Below are positions 1-5,219 of a DNA stretch of 5,219 nt, piece after piece. Source of the DNA: a virus (taxonomy: Duplodnaviria > Heunggongvirae > Uroviricota > Caudoviricetes); the IMG/VR virus record IMGVR_UViG_3300029006_000029; one strand, written 5' to 3'. Position 1 is the stretch's first letter. Every line of letters starts with the position of its first letter. The notes under the pieces are model-generated. The model was not told where the DNA came from and did not search any database. It saw only the letters and a program-made list of their open reading frames with translations. Made by a program: the position numbers and the translations under genes.

Positions 1-178
1 GGTTTTTTTATGCGTAATGCACAGCCACATTCAGATTATGGTGGGGCGTGCAGGGCAGCCGAAAGGCTGGCCGGTTTCGGTAGTCACCGGTATTTCCACC
101 CCTGTACGTCTCACCACCCTTATGGTCGTGGAAAGCCTTGGTGGTGAGTTATTTAAACTGACTATCGAGGCTGCCATC

Positions 179-478
179 ATGGCTACTATCCCTGCCCTTT
201 CTCACCCTGACGTAACCATCGAAAATGGACGCGCTGTCACTACGTCTATTGCGATCGCTGAGTTCTTTGGTAAACGCCACGAACGAGTGTTGGATAAAAT
301 TCGCAATCTGGACTGTTCAGCAAAATTCACTGAGCACAATTTTGTGTCGAGCGAATATACCGACTCAACCGGTCGCAAACTCCCAATGTACCAAATCACC
401 AAAAACGGCTTCGTTTTCCTGGTGATGGGCTTCACCGGCAAAAAAGCCGCTGCATTTAAAGAATGCCTACATCGCTGA
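179..478 (+). CDS. rha: Rha-family phage regulatory protein, N-terminal part; gene interrupted by an apparent 1-nt frameshift near 464 and continued in ORF 489..737
   Basis: Track ORF 17..478, trimmed to the in-frame ATG at 179 because GAGG at 167-170 is the only start with a Shine-Dalgarno-like motif. Product from 179 (MATIPALSHPDVTIENGRAVTTSIAIAEFFGKRHERVLDKIRNL...PMYQITKNGFVFLVMGFTGKKAAAFKE) matches the conserved N-terminal Rha domain as I recall it. The frame ends at TGA 476-478 just where the Rha consensus (FKEAYIAEFNRME) would continue. Confidence 0.6.
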   Translation: MATIPALSHPDVTIENGRAVTTSIAIAEFFGKRHERVLDKIRNLDCSAKFTEHNFVSSEYTDSTGRKLPMYQITKNGFVFLVMGFTGKKAAAFKECLHR

Positions 479-488
479 GTTCGATCGC

Positions 489-737
489 ATGGAGAAAGAA
501 CTGCGCCAGAATAACGCCCCGTCTCCCGACAAAATGATTCACGGGGACGGACGTACCCTGGTTATCCGTCTCGACAAACACGGCAATATCAAATTCACTG
601 AAACCGTTCCGGACGGCGCAATGGTCTGCACCCTGGATACCTTCCAGTTTTATCTGGAGAAACAAGGCTGGACTCTTGTAAACCGGAGCGCAATTAAAAA
701 TATGACTGTGGAGCAATTACTAAAAATTCATTGTTGA
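489..737 (+). CDS. rha: Rha-family phage regulatory protein, C-terminal part (downstream fragment of the frameshifted gene)
   Basis: Track ORF 489..737 (82 aa). Its frame is open upstream to 426 and reads ...AYIAEFDRMEKELRQ... from 465, exactly continuing the Rha motif that breaks off in the 179..478 frame after FKE (455-463). One extra base around 464 separates the two frames. Stop TGA at 735-737. Confidence 0.55.
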   Translation: MEKELRQNNAPSPDKMIHGDGRTLVIRLDKHGNIKFTETVPDGAMVCTLDTFQFYLEKQGWTLVNRSAIKNMTVEQLLKIHC

Positions 738-747
738 GGACGCGATA

Positions 748-936
748 ATGGAAACGTTATTACCAAACGTTAATACGTCTGAAGGTTGTTTTGATATTGG
801 TGTTCTGCTCAGTAACCGGGAGTTTACTGAAGATGCCATTAAGATGAGAAAATATGAACCTTATCTTCTCAATGATAATTCCATACTTTCCAGAATTGCC
901 CTTCTTGAACTTGGTATTATCGGAGAACAGCAGTGA
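748..936 (+). CDS. hypothetical small protein (62 aa)
   Basis: ATG at 748 preceded by GAGGA (736-740) at about 7 nt spacing; starts 10 nt after the Rha stop, co-oriented with the operon. Sequence is visibly AT-rich. No family recognised. Confidence 0.45.
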   Translation: METLLPNVNTSEGCFDIGVLLSNREFTEDAIKMRKYEPYLLNDNSILSRIALLELGIIGEQQ

Positions 937-1213: not shown

Positions 1214-3757
1214 ATGAGCACTGATAAAGAAACTTTTGCACTATATTGCGAAGCAAAAAATGACAAGGTCAGAAAACGCCTTGGGATTAAAGGTGGTTTT
1301 TACTGGACTACAGCAAAAAAATTATCTGTTGCCATCTCCCGCTGCATTACCGCAATGGATGATAATGATTATGACGAGGACGACTTTAAAAAACCTGTTC
1401 GCGTCCATTTACCCGTTGTGAATGACCTTCCTCCAGAAGGCGTGTTTGATACTGAATTCTGCAACCGTTACGAAAAAGGCGGGGAAGATGGTATCACAAT
1501 GATATTTATAGCTCCTTCCCCTTCAGCTCAGGACAAACCTGCCAGCACTGACAATACCAGCAGCGAAGCTGTTACAGGTGTCAGCCGTGACTGCGATGAA
1601 CAAAGTGACTCTCAGACAGAGAACGCAGATAAAAGCGAATCCCCGGACAGCAACGATGACTGCCCTGAATGTGAAATCCCCGTCTCCACCCTGAGTCTTA
1701 CCCATCGCTTCCTGCACCTCTACTTCTTTGGTCAGGAGTTCGACGAGAAATACAAACATCACGCCACACCAGAACAACGCAAGGACGTGATCCGCATCGA
1801 AATGGATATGGAAGATGGAAACATACAGAGCCTGCTTACTGCAGTACGTTCGCATCCTGAGCTGGATAAGCTGACAAACCATCATCTTGGAAGACTGGCG
1901 CATTCGGTGGAAAAGGCATTCACTCACGCAACAACACGCCGTATCAGCCCGGCAGAATTCGACAAGTTCATTTCCACCTGGATGAAGACTGACTACCTTG
2001 ATCAGGGGCTGTTGACAAAAGAGTGGGCAAAGGGAAATTGCGTATCTGAAATCAATCGCACCCCGTCCGGCGCTAATGCTGGCGGAGGAATTCTTACCGA
2101 TCGCGGTGAAGGTTTTGTCCACGATGATGCGTCAGTGGAACGTGACGTTGCCGCTGGCGTTCTGGCCCGTTCAATGGACATCGATATTTACAATCCACAT
2201 CCGGCACACGCCAAACGCATTGAAGAAATCGTTTCAGAGAATAAGCCGCCCTTTTCTGTTTTTCGTGACAAATTCATCGCCATGCCTGGTCACCTGGATT
2301 ATTCCCGCGCGATAGTAGTTGCGTCCGTGAAAGAAGCACCAATTGGTATCGAGGCTACTCCCCACCGTGTTACCGAATATCTGAACAAAGTACTGACCGA
2401 AACCGATCATGCCAACCCTGATCCGGAAATCGTGGATATTGCCTGCGGTCGCTCCTCTGCCCCTATCCCGCAGCGTGTAACAAAAGAAGGAAAACAGGAT
2501 GATGAAGAAAAACCGCAGCCATCTGGCGCAATGGCAGATGAACAGGCAACGACTGAAGCAGTGGAACCGGATACAACTGAACATAATCAGGACACGCAGT
2601 CGATGGATGCTCAGCCACAGATAAATTCTGTTGATGCGAAATATCAGAAACTGCGTGCAGAACTCTATGAAGCCAGGAAAAACATTCCACCCAAAAATCC
2701 TGTCGATGCAGATAAATTACTGGCTGCTTCTCACGGAGAATTTGTTGAAGGGATTAGCGACCCGAATGATCCAAAATGGGTGAAGGGGATTGAAACCCGC
2801 GATTCGGTGAACCATAACCAGCAAGAAACGGAACAGAAAGGCCATAAAGCGGAACAACACAGTCCAAATGCGCAACAAAACGAGCCAGAAACGAAACAGC
2901 CTGAACCAGTAGCGCAACAGGAACCGGAAAAAGTCTGCACAGCCTGCGGTCAGATCGGCGGCGGCAACTGTCCTGACTGTGGCGCGGTGATGGGCGACGC
3001 AACATACCATGAGACATTCAACGAAGAAAGCCAGGATGAAGCCCGGGAAAAAGATCCGGAGGAAATGGAAAGTGCCGGACTCCCGAACAAGGAGTGCACC
3101 GAAGGCGATCAACATGCCAATGGCAATAATGAAACAGGCGAGACAGCAAATCTCTTAATTAAGGTGAACGGTCATCGTGAAATCACATCCACCAGCAGGT
3201 TGTGGCACCATCTGATGATTGACCTTGAAACAATGGGCAAAAATCCTGACGCACCAATAGCCTCAATAGGCGCTGTATTTTTCGATCCACAAACCGGAGA
3301 TATGGGACCGGAATTTAGTAAGACTATCGATCTGGAAACTGCTGGCGGAGTCATTGATCGGGACACCATTAAATGGTGGCTTAAGCAATCACGCGAAGCG
3401 CAATCTGCCATTATGACCGATGAAATCCCGTTAGATGATGCACTGTTACAATTGCGGGAATTTATCGACGAAAACTCCGGTGAATTTTATGTTCAGGTCT
3501 GGGGAAATGGAGCCAACTTCGACAACACGATTTTGCGCCGTTCATACGAACGGCAGGGGATCCCCTGCCCGTGGCGTTACTACAACGATCGCGATGTACG
3601 CACAATCGTTGAGCTGGGGAAAGCCATAGACTTCGATGCCAGAACGGCTATTCCATTCGAAGGTGAGCGCCATAATGCACTTGATGACGCCCGTTACCAG
3701 GCAAAATACGTTTCAGTTATCTGGCAAAAACTGATCCCGAGTCAGGCTGATTCTTAA
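1214..3757 (+). CDS. large phage exonuclease, RecE-like (exodeoxyribonuclease VIII-like) N-terminal and central region with a C-terminal DEDDh (DnaQ/RNase T-like) 3'-5' exonuclease domain
   Basis: 847-aa ORF; ATG 1214 with GAGG at 1203-1206. Segments such as [21 protein letters not shown]...SGANAGGG...[50 protein letters not shown] and [13 protein letters not shown] match my unverified recollection of the N-terminal region of Rac RecE. The C-terminal ~190 aa carry DEDDh motifs: MIDLETMG (D at 3221-3223, E at 3227-3229), [12 protein letters not shown] (D at 3521-3523), HNALDDARY (H at 3671-3673, D at 3686-3688). Stop TAA 3755-3757. Confidence 0.9.
3182..3754 (+). other. DEDDh-type 3'-5' exonuclease domain (C-terminal domain of the 1214..3757 ORF)
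   Basis: Exo I D-x-E (DLE in LMIDLETMG), Exo II ([13 protein letters not shown]) and Exo III H-x4-D (HNALDD) occur in canonical order and spacing within about 190 residues. Confidence 0.8.
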
Positions 3758-3829: not shown

Positions 3830-4081
3830 ATGAGCGAAGTAATCATGATTGTCTCTCCCGGCAAATGGGTATCCGAAGAGCAGTTAATTGCGCTGAAAGG
3901 AATAAAAAAAGGTACGTTAAAAAAGGCCCGGGAAAAATCGTTTATGGAAGGAAGGGAATATAAGCATGTCGCTCATGACGGTATGCCATGGGATAACAGC
4001 CCATGCTTTTACAACCTGGAAGAAATTGATCGCTGGATTGAGCGCCAGGCATCAGCGAGACCAAGACGTCATCTTACTTGA
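3830..4081 (+). CDS. xis: excisionase-like protein (Xis), 83 aa
   Basis: Small ORF immediately upstream of and co-oriented with the integrase. Product (MSEVIMIVSPGKWVSEEQLIALKGIKKGTLKKAREKSFMEGREYKHVAHDGMPWDNSPCFYNLEEIDRWIERQ...) has the size and basic/aromatic character of phage excisionases. Alternative start ATG at 3845. Stop TGA 4079-4081. Confidence 0.75.
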   Translation: MSEVIMIVSPGKWVSEEQLIALKGIKKGTLKKAREKSFMEGREYKHVAHDGMPWDNSPCFYNLEEIDRWIERQASARPRRHLT

Positions 4082-4115: not shown

Positions 4116-5219
4116 ATGAAATATCCGACAGGCGTGGAAAACCATGGAGGGAAATTACGTATCTGGTTTGTTTATAAAGGCGTAAGAGTCAGGGAAAATC
4201 TGGGGGTTCCTGACACAGCAAAAAACAGGCGCGTNNNNNNNNNNCTACGCGCCTCTGTTTGTTACGCAATAAAAACTGGTGTTTTCGACTATGCAAAACA
4301 GTTTCCCTCCTCACGCAATCTGGAAAAATTTGGTGAGGCCCGACAAGATTTAACCATAAAAGAACTGGCTGAAAAATTTCTGGCACTGAAAGAAACTGAA
4401 GTCGCAAAAACATCACTCAACACATACCGTGCCGTCATCAAAAATATCCTGAGCATAATCGGTGAAAAAAATCTTGCCTCATCGATTAATAAAGAAAAAT
4501 TACTGGAGGTTCGTAAAGAGCTACTGACTGGATACCAGATCCCCAAAAGTAACTATATTGTTACACAACCAGGGAGATCGGCTGTAACTGTAAATAATTA
4601 CATGACAAATCTTAACGCCGTGTTCCAGTTTGGTGTTGATAACGGTTACTTGGCAGATAACCCGTTTAAGGGGATCTCGCCATTAAAGGAATCAAGAACC
4701 ATTCCGGATCCTCTTTCGCGGGAGGAATTCATCCGTCTTATCGATGCGTGCAGAAATCAGCAAGCCAAAAATTTATGGTGTGTTTCTGTTTATACTGGCG
4801 TTCGCCCTGGTGAGCTGTGTGCACTTGGATGGGAGGACATAGATCTGAAAAATGGAACAATGATGATCAGGAGAAATTTAGCAAAAGACCGTTTCACGGT
4901 ACCAAAAACACAGGCGGGAACCAATCGGGTCATTCATCTTATTAAGCCAGCAATCGACGCTCTCCGGAGTCAGATGACATTAACGAGACTGAGCAAAGAG
5001 CATATCATTGATGTTCACCTCAGAGAGTATGGCAGAACAGAAAAACAAAAATGCACCTTTGTTTTTCAACCTGAAGTGTCAGCGAGAGTAAAAAATTATG
5101 GTGACCATTTTACCGTTGACTCAATAAGGCAGATGTGGGACGCAGCGATAAAACGTGCCGGACTCCGCCATCGAAAATCATATCAGTCGAGACATACTTA
5201 TGCCTGCTGGTCGCTGACA
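4116..5219 (+). CDS. int: phage integrase, tyrosine recombinase family; 3'-partial (runs off the window end), contains a 10-N run
   Basis: Hand-translated from ATG 4116 (purine-rich GAGAGAAG just upstream; another in-frame ATG at 4101). The frame stays open for 368 codons to 5219, reading through the N-run. N-terminus MKYPTGVENHGGKLRIWFVYKGVRVREN resembles Rac-type IntR as I recall it. Box I motif VYTGVRPGELCAL is present (catalytic Arg codon 4803-4805) and box II begins at SRHTYACWSL at the window edge; the catalytic Tyr lies beyond the window. Absent from the ORF track because there is no in-window stop. Confidence 0.9.
   Translation, partial: MKYPTGVENHGGKLRIWFVYKGVRVRENLGVPDTAKNRRXXXXLRASVCYAIKTGVFDYAKQFPSSRNLEKFGEARQDLTIKELAEKFLALKETEVAKTSLNTYRAVIKNILSIIGEKNLASSINKEKLLEVRKELLTGYQIPKSNYIVTQPGRSAVTVNNYMTNLNAVFQFGVDNGYLADNPFKGISPLKESRTIPDPLSREEFIRLIDACRNQQAKNLWCVSVYTGVRPGELCALGWEDIDLKNGTMMIRRNLAKDRFTVPKTQAGTNRVIHLIKPAIDALRSQMTLTRLSKEHIIDVHLREYGRTEKQKCTFVFQPEVSARVKNYGDHFTVDSIRQMWDAAIKRAGLRHRKSYQSRHTYACWSLT
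4235..4244. other. run of 10 ambiguous bases (N) - assembly gap or masked bases inside the integrase gene
   Basis: Literal nnnnnnnnnn in the sequence. The integrase frame is maintained across it (GTN codon plus three NNN codons), so the run's length is compatible with the true sequence. Confidence 0.95.

What the first reader, a model, noticed from the sequence alone, without database searches (positions are those of the whole stretch)
455..491. Rha-family gene split by a single-base frameshift
Frame A (179..478) reads ...GFTGKKAAAFKE then CLHR-stop. Frame B, open from 426, reads AYIAEFDRMEKELRQ... from nt 465. Together these reconstruct the conserved Rha motif FKE-AYIAEF, with one extra base around 464 (gaa-t-gcc). 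Either the gene is an inactivated pseudogene (prophage decay) or this is a sequencing or assembly error; the N-run elsewhere in the window suggests draft-quality sequence. There is no slippery heptamer to suggest programmed frameshifting.
Basis: partly seen in the sequence, partly recalled or inferred. Interest (0 to 1): 0.45.

Follow-up and report, generated by a model that had tools for sequence, protein, structure and literature searches.

The report
Real frameshift in prophage Rha gene
One extra T at base 464 breaks a Rha-family regulatory gene in a Qin-type E. coli prophage; the same lesion turns up in many independent gut metagenome assemblies, so it is a real inherited mutation and an ordinary pseudogene, not a sequencing error.

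Summary
Compared with intact alleles, the window has one extra T at 464 (GAA-T-GCC). Frame A (ATG179) therefore ends ...FKE-CLHR-stop at 476-478, and the rest of the protein (AYIAEFDRMEKEL...) continues in frame B to 737. Removing the T rebuilds a 185-aa protein that is 99% identical to intact E. coli Rha-family proteins.

It is a real allele. The identical insertion is in 10 metagenome contigs from several studies and assemblers, on at least 5 flanking haplotypes, and once on a recombinant allele with a very different 5' half. It is rare: none of about 228 complete E. coli genomes carrying this stretch has it.

The break lies inside the Rha domain (Pfam position 81 of 91), in a predicted long helix (residues 88-112), and separates residues that are at least 90% conserved. 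There is no recoding signal, and ATG489 has no Shine-Dalgarno sequence.

The gene is the protein-coding part of an isrK/C4 antisense-RNA module, like P1 immI and Salmonella Gifsy-1 isrK-anrP. The C4 RNA at 34-121 is intact, and its loop covaries with a site over the rha ribosome-binding site.

Verdict: an ordinary lineage-specific prophage pseudogene, of low interest.

The parts
1..9 (+). Tail (GGTTTTTTT) of the terminator of an isrK-family sRNA whose body lies upstream of the window
   Evidence: In the collinear intact locus L001, Rfam isrK RF01394 covers 4784-4860 (63.5 bits), and window base 1 corresponds to L001 4852.
34..121 (+). C4 antisense RNA gene (Rfam RF01695), intact
   Evidence: 79.3 bits against a gathering score of 45, E 5.7e-15, full model 1-87.
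75..86 (+). Loop of C4 hairpin 2 (b', UUUCGGUAGUCA), the specificity determinant
   Evidence: Its reverse complement matches the b2 site in each specificity type examined. Cognate duplexes are -12.7 to -16.8 kcal/mol and non-cognate ones -2.5 to -8.2.
159..170 (+). b2 target site (UGACUAUCGAGG), which includes the rha Shine-Dalgarno GAGG at 167-170
   Evidence: It covaries with the C4 loop. Loop:target energy is -14.4 kcal/mol against -7.6 +/- 1.8 in shuffles, reached by 1 of 1000. The anti-SD duplex for ATG179 is -5.9 kcal/mol.
179..478 (+). 5' part of rha (frame A): 95 authentic codons, then CLHR and the TGA stop at 476-478
   Evidence: Pfam Phage_pRha profile positions 1-81 of 91.
464..464 (+). 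The inserted T that causes the frameshift
   Evidence: It is the only gap against the intact allele. It is present in L002-L012 and L030. It is absent from all complete E. coli genomes that carry this stretch.
465..737 (+). 3' part of rha (frame B): residues 96-185 of the intact protein. The 82-aa ORF from ATG489 is the piece that gene callers report.
   Evidence: It matches phrog_995 positions 204-307 and phrog_25059. The 82-aa ORF is called on 16 to 20 contigs. ATG489 has no Shine-Dalgarno sequence: -2.2 kcal/mol, which is background level.
748..936 (+). dicB (cell-division inhibitor), the next gene of the operon, intact with its own Shine-Dalgarno sequence
   Evidence: Pfam DicB, E 3.7e-38, profile 1-62 of 62; anti-SD duplex -5.9 kcal/mol.

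Best explanation
A genuine, heritable one-base insertion (+T at 464) has disrupted the rha gene of a Qin-type lambdoid prophage of E. coli that integrates beside rspB.

Shown: translation from ATG179 (or from the upstream in-frame start used in public annotation) runs into TGA 476-478 after four wrong codons. The product stops inside the Rha domain, about one third of the way along a predicted long helix (residues 88-112). It lacks the conserved Y97, I98, F101 and M104 and the whole C-terminal domain (about residues 126-184).

Inferred: the remaining 82-codon ORF has no ribosome-binding site of its own. At best it is made at a low level by re-initiation 10 nt after the stop. Residues 96-103 would be missing from both pieces.

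Inferred from context: rha is the protein effector of an isrK / C4 antisense-RNA module of the same design as P1 immI (c4-icd-ant) and Gifsy-1 isrK-C4-anrP. The C4 loop pairs with a site covering the rha Shine-Dalgarno sequence and holds translation down.

The lesion therefore most likely removes the antirepressor-like output of the module, while the regulatory RNAs and the downstream dicB stay intact. The allele is rare. It has persisted long enough to sit on several flanking haplotypes and to be moved by recombination onto a different 5' half.
For: Lesion position.

The lesion is real:
- The identical insertion is in 10 contigs from ENA and JGI assemblies made with different assemblers, plus IMG/VR.
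- These lie on at least 5 flanking haplotypes, with the rha ORF itself invariant.
- It is also in Logan SRR30325485 on a mosaic allele.
- It is not in a homopolymer.

The lesion is rare:
- None of 228 complete E. coli genomes that match 430-499 has it.
- There are no hits in GTDB species representatives.
- The truncated 198-aa product is on 9 contigs, against at least 1000 for one intact allele.

The lesion is disruptive:
- The Pfam domain spans residues 21-106 and is cut at profile position 81 of 91.
- In a 48-sequence alignment (32-66% identity), K94 and F101 are invariant and E95, Y97, I98 and M104 are at least 90% conserved.
- The AlphaFold model (pLDDT 88) has a helix at 88-112 spanning the site.
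- In 10,126 family representatives the matched stretch runs to residues 101-123.
- Phage homologues share residues 1-108/115 and then diverge, so the module boundary lies after the lesion.

No rescue: there is no Shine-Dalgarno sequence at ATG489.

Module context:
- C4 RNA in the window.
- isrK and DicF upstream in the collinear locus.
- Covariation between the C4 loop and the b2 site.
- Gifsy-1 has isrK, c4-a1b1 and C4 followed by AnrP.
- The AnrP C-terminal domain weakly matches the Rha C-terminal domain (phrog_2379).
- Literature on these systems: PMC4825925 and PMC8201110.
Against: No read-level data could be inspected, so reality rests on concordance between assemblies. Some of the metagenome samples may be related, for example two from PRJEB6456 and several with neighbouring ERZ numbers.

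Loss of function is inferred from conservation and a predicted structure, not measured. A 99-aa fragment that keeps most of the winged-helix-like core could retain some DNA binding.

The antirepressor role of this Rha protein is untested. It rests on PHROG names, genomic context, and a weak C-terminal match to AnrP (BLASTP E 0.003).

Persistence of the allele on several backgrounds could also mean it is not simply neutral decay.
Confidence: 0.85

Rival explanations
1. Sequencing or assembly error: the true genome has the intact gene and the extra T is an artefact of a draft assembly.
For: The window contains a run of 10 Ns. No complete E. coli genome carries the T.
Against: The same T is present in 10 other contigs from different projects and assemblers, and in an unrelated Logan run on a different allele. 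The flanking sequence differs among carriers. The site is not a homopolymer. The N-run replaces exactly 10 bases in frame and says nothing about base accuracy elsewhere.
Confidence: 0.03
2. Programmed recoding: a +1 ribosomal frameshift, or loss of one A by transcriptional slippage on the A6 run at 440-445, restores a full-length Rha protein from the +T allele.
For: An A6 run lies 19 nt upstream of the lesion, inside the overlap of the two frames at 426-475. The allele persists on several backgrounds.
Against: More than 98% of alleles have one continuous frame, so the shift is not a conserved feature. The codon before the stop (CGC UGA) cannot re-pair in +1, and no Shine-Dalgarno-like stimulator precedes it. 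A_AAA_AAG is in register for frame B and would shift by -1, the wrong direction. Six As is short for efficient polymerase slippage. A shift at the A run would replace AAAFKE, which includes invariant K94, with PLHLKN.
Confidence: 0.02
3. A functional split gene: the truncated N-terminal fragment and a re-initiated 82-aa C-terminal fragment both act, separately or together, so the allele is an altered regulator rather than a null.
For: The stop at 476-478 and ATG489 are only 10 nt apart, which permits termination-reinitiation. The C-terminal module occurs as an exchangeable unit with other N-terminal domains, for example in AnrP and phrog_2379. The 3' ORF is unbroken in all carriers. The allele has spread to several backgrounds.
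Against: The break is 12-19 residues upstream of the natural module boundary at about 108-115, inside a conserved helix. Residues 96-103 are lost from both pieces. ATG489 has no Shine-Dalgarno sequence. Among the listed family representatives, none that runs to its own C-terminus ends before about residue 106. The carriers show no variation in the ORF, so there is no evidence of selection.
Confidence: 0.08

Closest known systems
Rha-family phage regulatory proteins (Pfam PF09669 Phage_pRha; phrog_995 / phrog_518), as annotated in E. coli Qin/Rac-type and Stx prophages
   Same: The rebuilt protein covers the whole Pfam profile at 107.9 bits. It is 87-99% identical to hundreds of E. coli proteins named 'Rha family phage regulatory protein'. 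The genomic position is also the same: between DUF1391 and dicB.
   Different: In the window the gene is interrupted by +T at 464. As encoded, it yields a 99-aa product (198 aa from the upstream start) that lacks the last 10 profile positions and the C-terminal domain.
Salmonella Gifsy-1 isrK - orf45/STnc1160 - anrP locus (Hershko-Shalev et al. 2016, PMC4825925)
   Same: The RNA layout is the same: an isrK sRNA carrying the a1/b1 sites, then a C4-family RNA, then an antirepressor-like gene. The AnrP C-terminal domain weakly resembles the Rha C-terminal domain (BLASTP E 0.003; phrog_2379 at 5.5e-9).
   Different: The AnrP N-terminal domain is ORF6N (PF10543), not Rha. In Gifsy-1 a separate orf45 is translationally coupled to anrP. 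Here the upstream frame runs straight into rha without a stop. The location also differs: next to antQ in Gifsy-1, in the early-left operon before dicB here. In this window the effector gene is broken.
Phage P1/P7 immI operon (c4 antisense RNA - icd - ant) and P4 seqA-CI-seqC immunity
   Same: The C4 RNA has a loop complementary to one site upstream and one downstream, and the downstream site covers the ribosome-binding site of the first regulated gene. The operon also carries a cell-division inhibitor: Icd in P1 (PMC11897509; PMC8201110), and DicB here or Kil in L015/L016.
   Different: The regulated protein belongs to a different family, and the host element is an integrated lambdoid prophage. 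Repression of rha by C4 is inferred here from covariation only. P4 acts through transcription termination rather than RBS occlusion.
Ordinary frameshift pseudogenes in prophages
   Same: A single-base indel, a premature stop a few codons later, a rare allele among mostly intact orthologues, and no recoding signal.
   Different: It is an isolated lesion in an otherwise intact gene block. It is also found on more than one recombinant background.

Membership tests
Rha family (Pfam PF09669 Phage_pRha) | A significant match to the family profile above the curated cut-off (29.9 bits) | tested here: met
   As encoded: 91.4 bits over profile positions 1-81 of 91. With the T removed: 107.9 bits over positions 1-91 of 91.
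Rha family (Pfam PF09669 Phage_pRha) | A complete domain in one reading frame | tested here: not met
   Profile positions 82-91 (AYIAEFDRME) are in frame B, after the extra T. It is a disrupted member of the family.
Frameshift pseudogene | An indel not divisible by three relative to intact orthologues, followed by a premature stop | tested here: met
   One gap at 464 against STEC1590; stop at 476-478.
Frameshift pseudogene | The lesion is real, meaning it is reproduced in independent data | tested here: met
   It is identical in L002-L012 and L030. Read pile-ups could not be inspected.
Frameshift pseudogene | No functional protein is made | not testable with these tools
   Inferred only, from conservation, the predicted helix at 88-112, and the lack of a Shine-Dalgarno sequence at ATG489.
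Programmed ribosomal frameshift / transcriptional slippage site | A slippery motif in the correct register, a stimulatory element, and conservation of the two-frame arrangement among homologues | tested here: not met
   There is no +1 motif at CGC-UGA. A_AAA_AAG is in register for the wrong frame. Homologues have a single frame.
Sequencing / assembly artefact | Confined to one assembly; typically in a homopolymer or at a contig end | tested here: not met
   It occurs in at least 11 other contigs, internal to those contigs, and in a non-homopolymer context.
C4 antisense-RNA (immI-type / isrK-type) control module | A C4-family RNA immediately upstream of the regulated gene | tested here: met
   RF01695 at 34-121, 79.3 bits.
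C4 antisense-RNA (immI-type / isrK-type) control module | The loop is complementary to an upstream (b1) and a downstream (b2) site, b2 covers the ribosome-binding site, and the elements covary between variants | tested here: met
   Five types appear (cognate -12.7 to -16.8, non-cognate -2.5 to -8.2 kcal/mol) and a sixth. In the sixth, a'/a2 also changes in step. b2 ends in GAGG at 167-170. b1 lies upstream of the window, inside isrK.
C4 antisense-RNA (immI-type / isrK-type) control module | The regulated protein is an antirepressor | not testable with these tools
   The only support is names of related PHROG families and a weak match of the C-terminal domain to AnrP.

The most novel reading that the evidence does not exclude
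The +T allele may be a selected loss of function rather than neutral decay. In Gifsy-1, expression of the analogous effector AnrP triggers antQ expression and growth arrest. Knocking out the rha effector while keeping isrK, C4 and dicB would remove a costly induction or toxicity route, and this could explain why the lesion has been carried by recombination onto at least two very different C4/rha 5' backgrounds. A more modest variant is that the truncated winged-helix fragment acts as a dominant-negative regulator.
Probability: 0.1. Interest if true: 0.35.

Novelty: already known. Interest (0 to 1): 0.12.

Why it matters
It matters little in itself. A frameshifted accessory regulator in a prophage is routine, and both the gene family and its RNA control module are already described.

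There are three practical points:
- The lesion should be annotated as a pseudogene, not corrected as an error and not called as two genes. Metagenome gene callers currently report a 198-aa and an 82-aa protein.
- It marks a traceable Qin-type prophage lineage in human gut E. coli.
- Carriers are natural knock-outs of the effector of an isrK/C4 module. They could be compared with intact lysogens if anyone studies what this Rha protein does.

Tried and rejected
- An exact 40-mer scan of GTDB species representatives found nothing. A scan of JGI metagenome contigs found only the contig already known as L005. The window's own source contig was not identified.
- An exact look-up of the window's 99-, 118-, 146- and 153-aa N-terminal ORFs and of the rebuilt 185-aa protein found nothing, because gene callers start upstream of the window. 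The window's 847-aa exonuclease is not on record exactly.
- The xis look-up returned only Qin-type prophages that lack the rha cassette. It was useful only for placing the element at rspB.
- Two full-text searches for a defined Rha function, or for a published link between Rha and C4 RNA, turned up nothing useful.
- I first read the annotated 'Ash' N-terminal extension as a pure artefact of translating RNA genes. I could not sustain this as stated, because that frame is open in every variant.
- I considered recurrent inactivation of rha as a general trend. I rejected it because neither +T nor the A7 variant occurs in about 228 complete genomes.
- I worked around this through saved alignments.

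Full report
WHAT IS IN THE WINDOW. The 5219-base window is the early-left arm of a Qin-type lambdoid prophage of E. coli. In order on the + strand it contains:
- the last 9 nt of an isrK-type sRNA terminator;
- a C4 antisense RNA at 34-121 (Rfam RF01695, 79.3 bits);
- the Rha-family gene (179-737, interrupted);
- dicB (748-936);
- a DUF1482 gene (933-1121);
- an 847-aa exonuclease (1214-3757);
- a DUF1233-type excisionase (3830-4081);
- a tyrosine integrase, open from 4116 to the end of the window.

In complete genomes the same gene block lies next to rspB/ynfA, the Qin attachment region. In the collinear intact locus of strain STEC1590, DicF, isrK and C4 precede rha.

CHECK OF THE OBSERVATION. 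Frame A from ATG179 reads ...GFTGKKAAAFKE, then CLHR, then TGA at 476-478. Frame B is open from 426 and reads AYIAEFDRMEKELRQ... from 465 to the stop at 735-737.

Aligned with STEC1590, the window differs across 400-520 by one gap only, the T at 464. Over the whole gene it differs at two further positions, 371 and 576.

The two ORFs are consecutive parts of one family. The N-terminal piece matches Pfam Phage_pRha positions 1-81 of 91. The rebuilt protein matches positions 1-91. The rebuilt 185-aa protein is 99% identical over its full length to intact E. coli proteins. The C-terminal piece matches positions 204-307 of the full-length family phrog_995.

REAL MUTATION OR ERROR?

The 82-aa downstream ORF is on record on about 20 contigs. 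The 10 that were fetched all have a 198-aa upstream gene ending 10 nt before it, and all carry the exact string GAATGCC. They come from:
- ENA analyses ERZ27239484 and ERZ27239370;
- ERZ1742159, ERZ1742019, ERZ1745641 and ERZ1745593;
- ERZ918702 and ERZ918590 (PRJEB6456);
- ERZ28567528;
- JGI 3300028991, which is also in IMG/VR.

These were assembled with different programs. Within 1.25 kb the carriers fall into at least five flanking haplotypes, while the rha ORF itself is invariant.

An eleventh carrier is Logan SRR30325485 (L030). It has the same T on a mosaic allele. Its C4 RNA, its target sites and the first ~70 codons of rha are strongly diverged. The 3' half is identical, except that residue 133 is E, as in intact alleles, rather than K.

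The insertion is not next to an identical base, so it is neither a homopolymer error nor an obvious slippage hotspot. The 10-N run in the integrase replaces exactly 10 bases in frame and has no bearing on base quality at 464.

I conclude that the T is a real, inherited allele of single origin that has been moved by recombination. I could not inspect reads, and some samples may be related.

HOW COMMON? Rare.
- None of the 228 complete E. coli genomes that match 430-499 has the T; all align with one gap.
- GTDB species representatives have no exact match.
- The truncated product is recorded on 9 contigs, against at least 1000 (the counter's cap) for one intact allele.

A few other lesions occur nearby in single short contigs: A6 to A7 at 440-445 in L027 and L029, a -1/-2 pair in L033, and a TAC-to-TAG change at a contig end in L032. 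These sit in a homopolymer or at a contig end, so they may be errors. The A7 variant is also absent from complete genomes. There is therefore no general trend towards inactivating this gene.

WHAT THE LESION DOES. The Rha domain covers residues 21-106.

In a 48-sequence alignment of family representatives (32-66% identity to the query), K94 and F101 are invariant, and E95, Y97, I98 and M104 are at least 90% conserved. The frameshift falls between E95 and Y97.

In phage genomes the N-terminal module is shared up to residues 108-115 and is then joined to unrelated C-terminal parts. In the representative library the matched stretch runs to residues 101-123. So the break is inside the conserved module, not at a domain junction, and I found no homologue that naturally ends at ...FKE.

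ATG489 has an anti-Shine-Dalgarno duplex of -2.2 kcal/mol, which is the window's background level. ATG179 and dicB both score -5.9. Independent translation of the 82-aa piece would therefore depend on re-initiation 10 nt after the stop.

No +1 recoding signal is present. The A_AAA_AAG run at 440-446 is in register for frame B only. dicB keeps its own Shine-Dalgarno sequence. Polarity on dicB was not assessed.

WHAT THE GENE IS PART OF. The C4 RNA has the two-hairpin structure of the family. I compared six intact loci and the carriers. Three short blocks are hypervariable and change together:
- a block upstream of the window (b1, inside isrK);
- the loop of C4 hairpin 2 (window 75-86);
- a block ending in the GAGG Shine-Dalgarno sequence of ATG179 (b2, 159-170).

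Cognate loop:b2 duplexes are -12.7 to -16.8 kcal/mol. All non-cognate combinations are -2.5 to -8.2. L030 adds a sixth type, in which the second pair (a' 91-99 with a2 128-134) also changes in step.

This is the design described for P1/P7 immI, where C4 RNA controls the antirepressor Ant (PMC8201110), and for P4 seqA-CI-seqC (quoted in PMC4825925).

Gifsy-1 has the same RNA layout: isrK overlapping an Rfam 'c4-a1b1' hit, then C4, followed by AnrP. AnrP has an ORF6N N-terminal domain instead of Rha. Its C-terminal domain weakly matches that of this protein (BLASTP E 0.003; phrog_2379 'anti-repressor' 5.5e-9).

In Gifsy-1, AnrP raises antQ expression, and antQ expression leads to growth arrest. 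By analogy, which is inference and not shown here, rha is the protein output of this module, and the +T allele removes that output while the RNAs remain.

GENE MODEL CAVEAT. Public annotation mostly starts the gene 297 nt upstream, giving 283/284 aa with a Pfam 'Ash' domain. That extension runs across both the isrK and the C4 RNA genes. It corresponds to the old 'cI gene product' ORF of P4, whose immunity factor is an RNA. Its variable sites show little third-position excess (18/15/23), unlike rha itself (41/30/87).

Some records use the short 184/185-aa form. ATG179 has the Shine-Dalgarno sequence that C4 targets.

Against this, the upstream frame is open in all eight variants, while the other two frames carry 4-8 stops, and only 0.7% of shuffles are open. 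This may reflect translation through the leader, as with orf45-anrP coupling in Gifsy-1. I leave it unresolved. It does not change the verdict on the frameshift; only the codon number of the break changes (96 or 195).

VERDICT. The 'sequencing error' alternative is rejected and the 'pseudogene' alternative is supported, with the qualification that this is an isolated, rare, recombining allele in an otherwise intact gene block, not general decay. The gene family, its RNA control module and this kind of lesion are all known. Interest is low.

Noticed in passing
window 34-121 (loop 75-86), 128-134, 159-170; related loci L001, L013-L017, L030: An intact C4 antisense RNA lies just upstream of rha. 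Its hairpin-2 loop, an upstream site (b1) and a site over the rha Shine-Dalgarno sequence (b2) covary across six specificity types. In one type the a'/a2 pair changes in step as well.
   Followed up: yes
window 1-9; L001 4490-4541 and 4784-4860: The window begins in the terminator tail of an isrK-family sRNA. In the collinear intact locus the order is DicF, isrK, C4, rha, dicB, the same RNA layout as Gifsy-1 isrK-C4-anrP (L034 34131-34329).
   Followed up: partly
L001 4733-5029, which corresponds to window bases up to 178 plus 118 nt upstream of the window: The annotated 283/284-aa 'Ash + Rha' CDS extends over the isrK and C4 RNA genes. The Pfam Ash region matches the old P4 'cI gene product' ORF. 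Even so, this frame has no stop in any of 8 variants, the other two frames have 4-8 stops, and only 0.7% of shuffles are open. This is unexplained and may reflect leader translation coupled to rha.
   Followed up: partly
L005 (ERZ1742159 NODE_5863; same contig as L026), corresponding to window 62-85: This frameshift carrier has a C4 loop of the L017 specificity type but b1/b2 sites of the window type. Loop:b2 is -5.4 kcal/mol against -16.4 for the cognate pair. It is either a natural recombinant with mismatched immunity or a chimeric low-coverage assembly.
   Followed up: partly
L030 (Logan SRR30325485), whole 933-nt contig: The same +T lesion sits on a mosaic allele whose 5' half (C4 type and the first ~70 codons of rha) is strongly diverged and whose residue 133 is E rather than K. 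The lesion is therefore older than the K133 change and has moved by recombination.
   Followed up: yes
L027, L029 (A-run corresponding to window 440-445); L033; L032: Other disruptions lie within 60 bp of the lesion in single short contigs: A6 to A7 on two backgrounds, a -1T/-2A pair that creates an in-frame TGA, and TAC to TAG at a contig end. None is found in complete genomes, so some may be sequencing errors.
   Followed up: partly
window 4235-4244: The run of 10 Ns in the integrase gene replaces exactly 10 bases (CGCTGGTGAA in E. coli strain 48) and keeps the reading frame. It looks like masking or ambiguous calls rather than a scaffold gap of unknown size.
   Followed up: yes
L015 791-856, L016 802-885, L017 803-886: Short dicB 5' fragments are annotated just upstream of the isrK-C4-rha cassette in several genomes. 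This suggests the cassette was inserted near the dicB start with a duplication. In L015 and L016 the gene after rha is kil instead of dicB.
   Followed up: no
window 1214-3757: The 847-aa 'exonuclease' combines an N-terminal Exonuc_VIII-like region with a C-terminal Rv2179c-like 3'-5' exoribonuclease domain. No protein with exactly this sequence is on record, although 847-aa versions occur in other carriers.
   Followed up: no
window about 1001-1012: A second site complementary to the C4 loop (-15.1 kcal/mol) lies inside the DUF1482 gene. It is probably a chance match in a 5-kb window.
   Followed up: no
L034 33513-34076 (Gifsy-1 STM2616 = AnrP) compared with rebuilt Rha residues 101-172: AnrP and this Rha protein seem to share a C-terminal domain (BLASTP E 0.003; phrog_2379) behind different N-terminal domains (ORF6N against Rha). 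This suggests domain shuffling among effectors controlled by C4 RNAs.
   Followed up: partly
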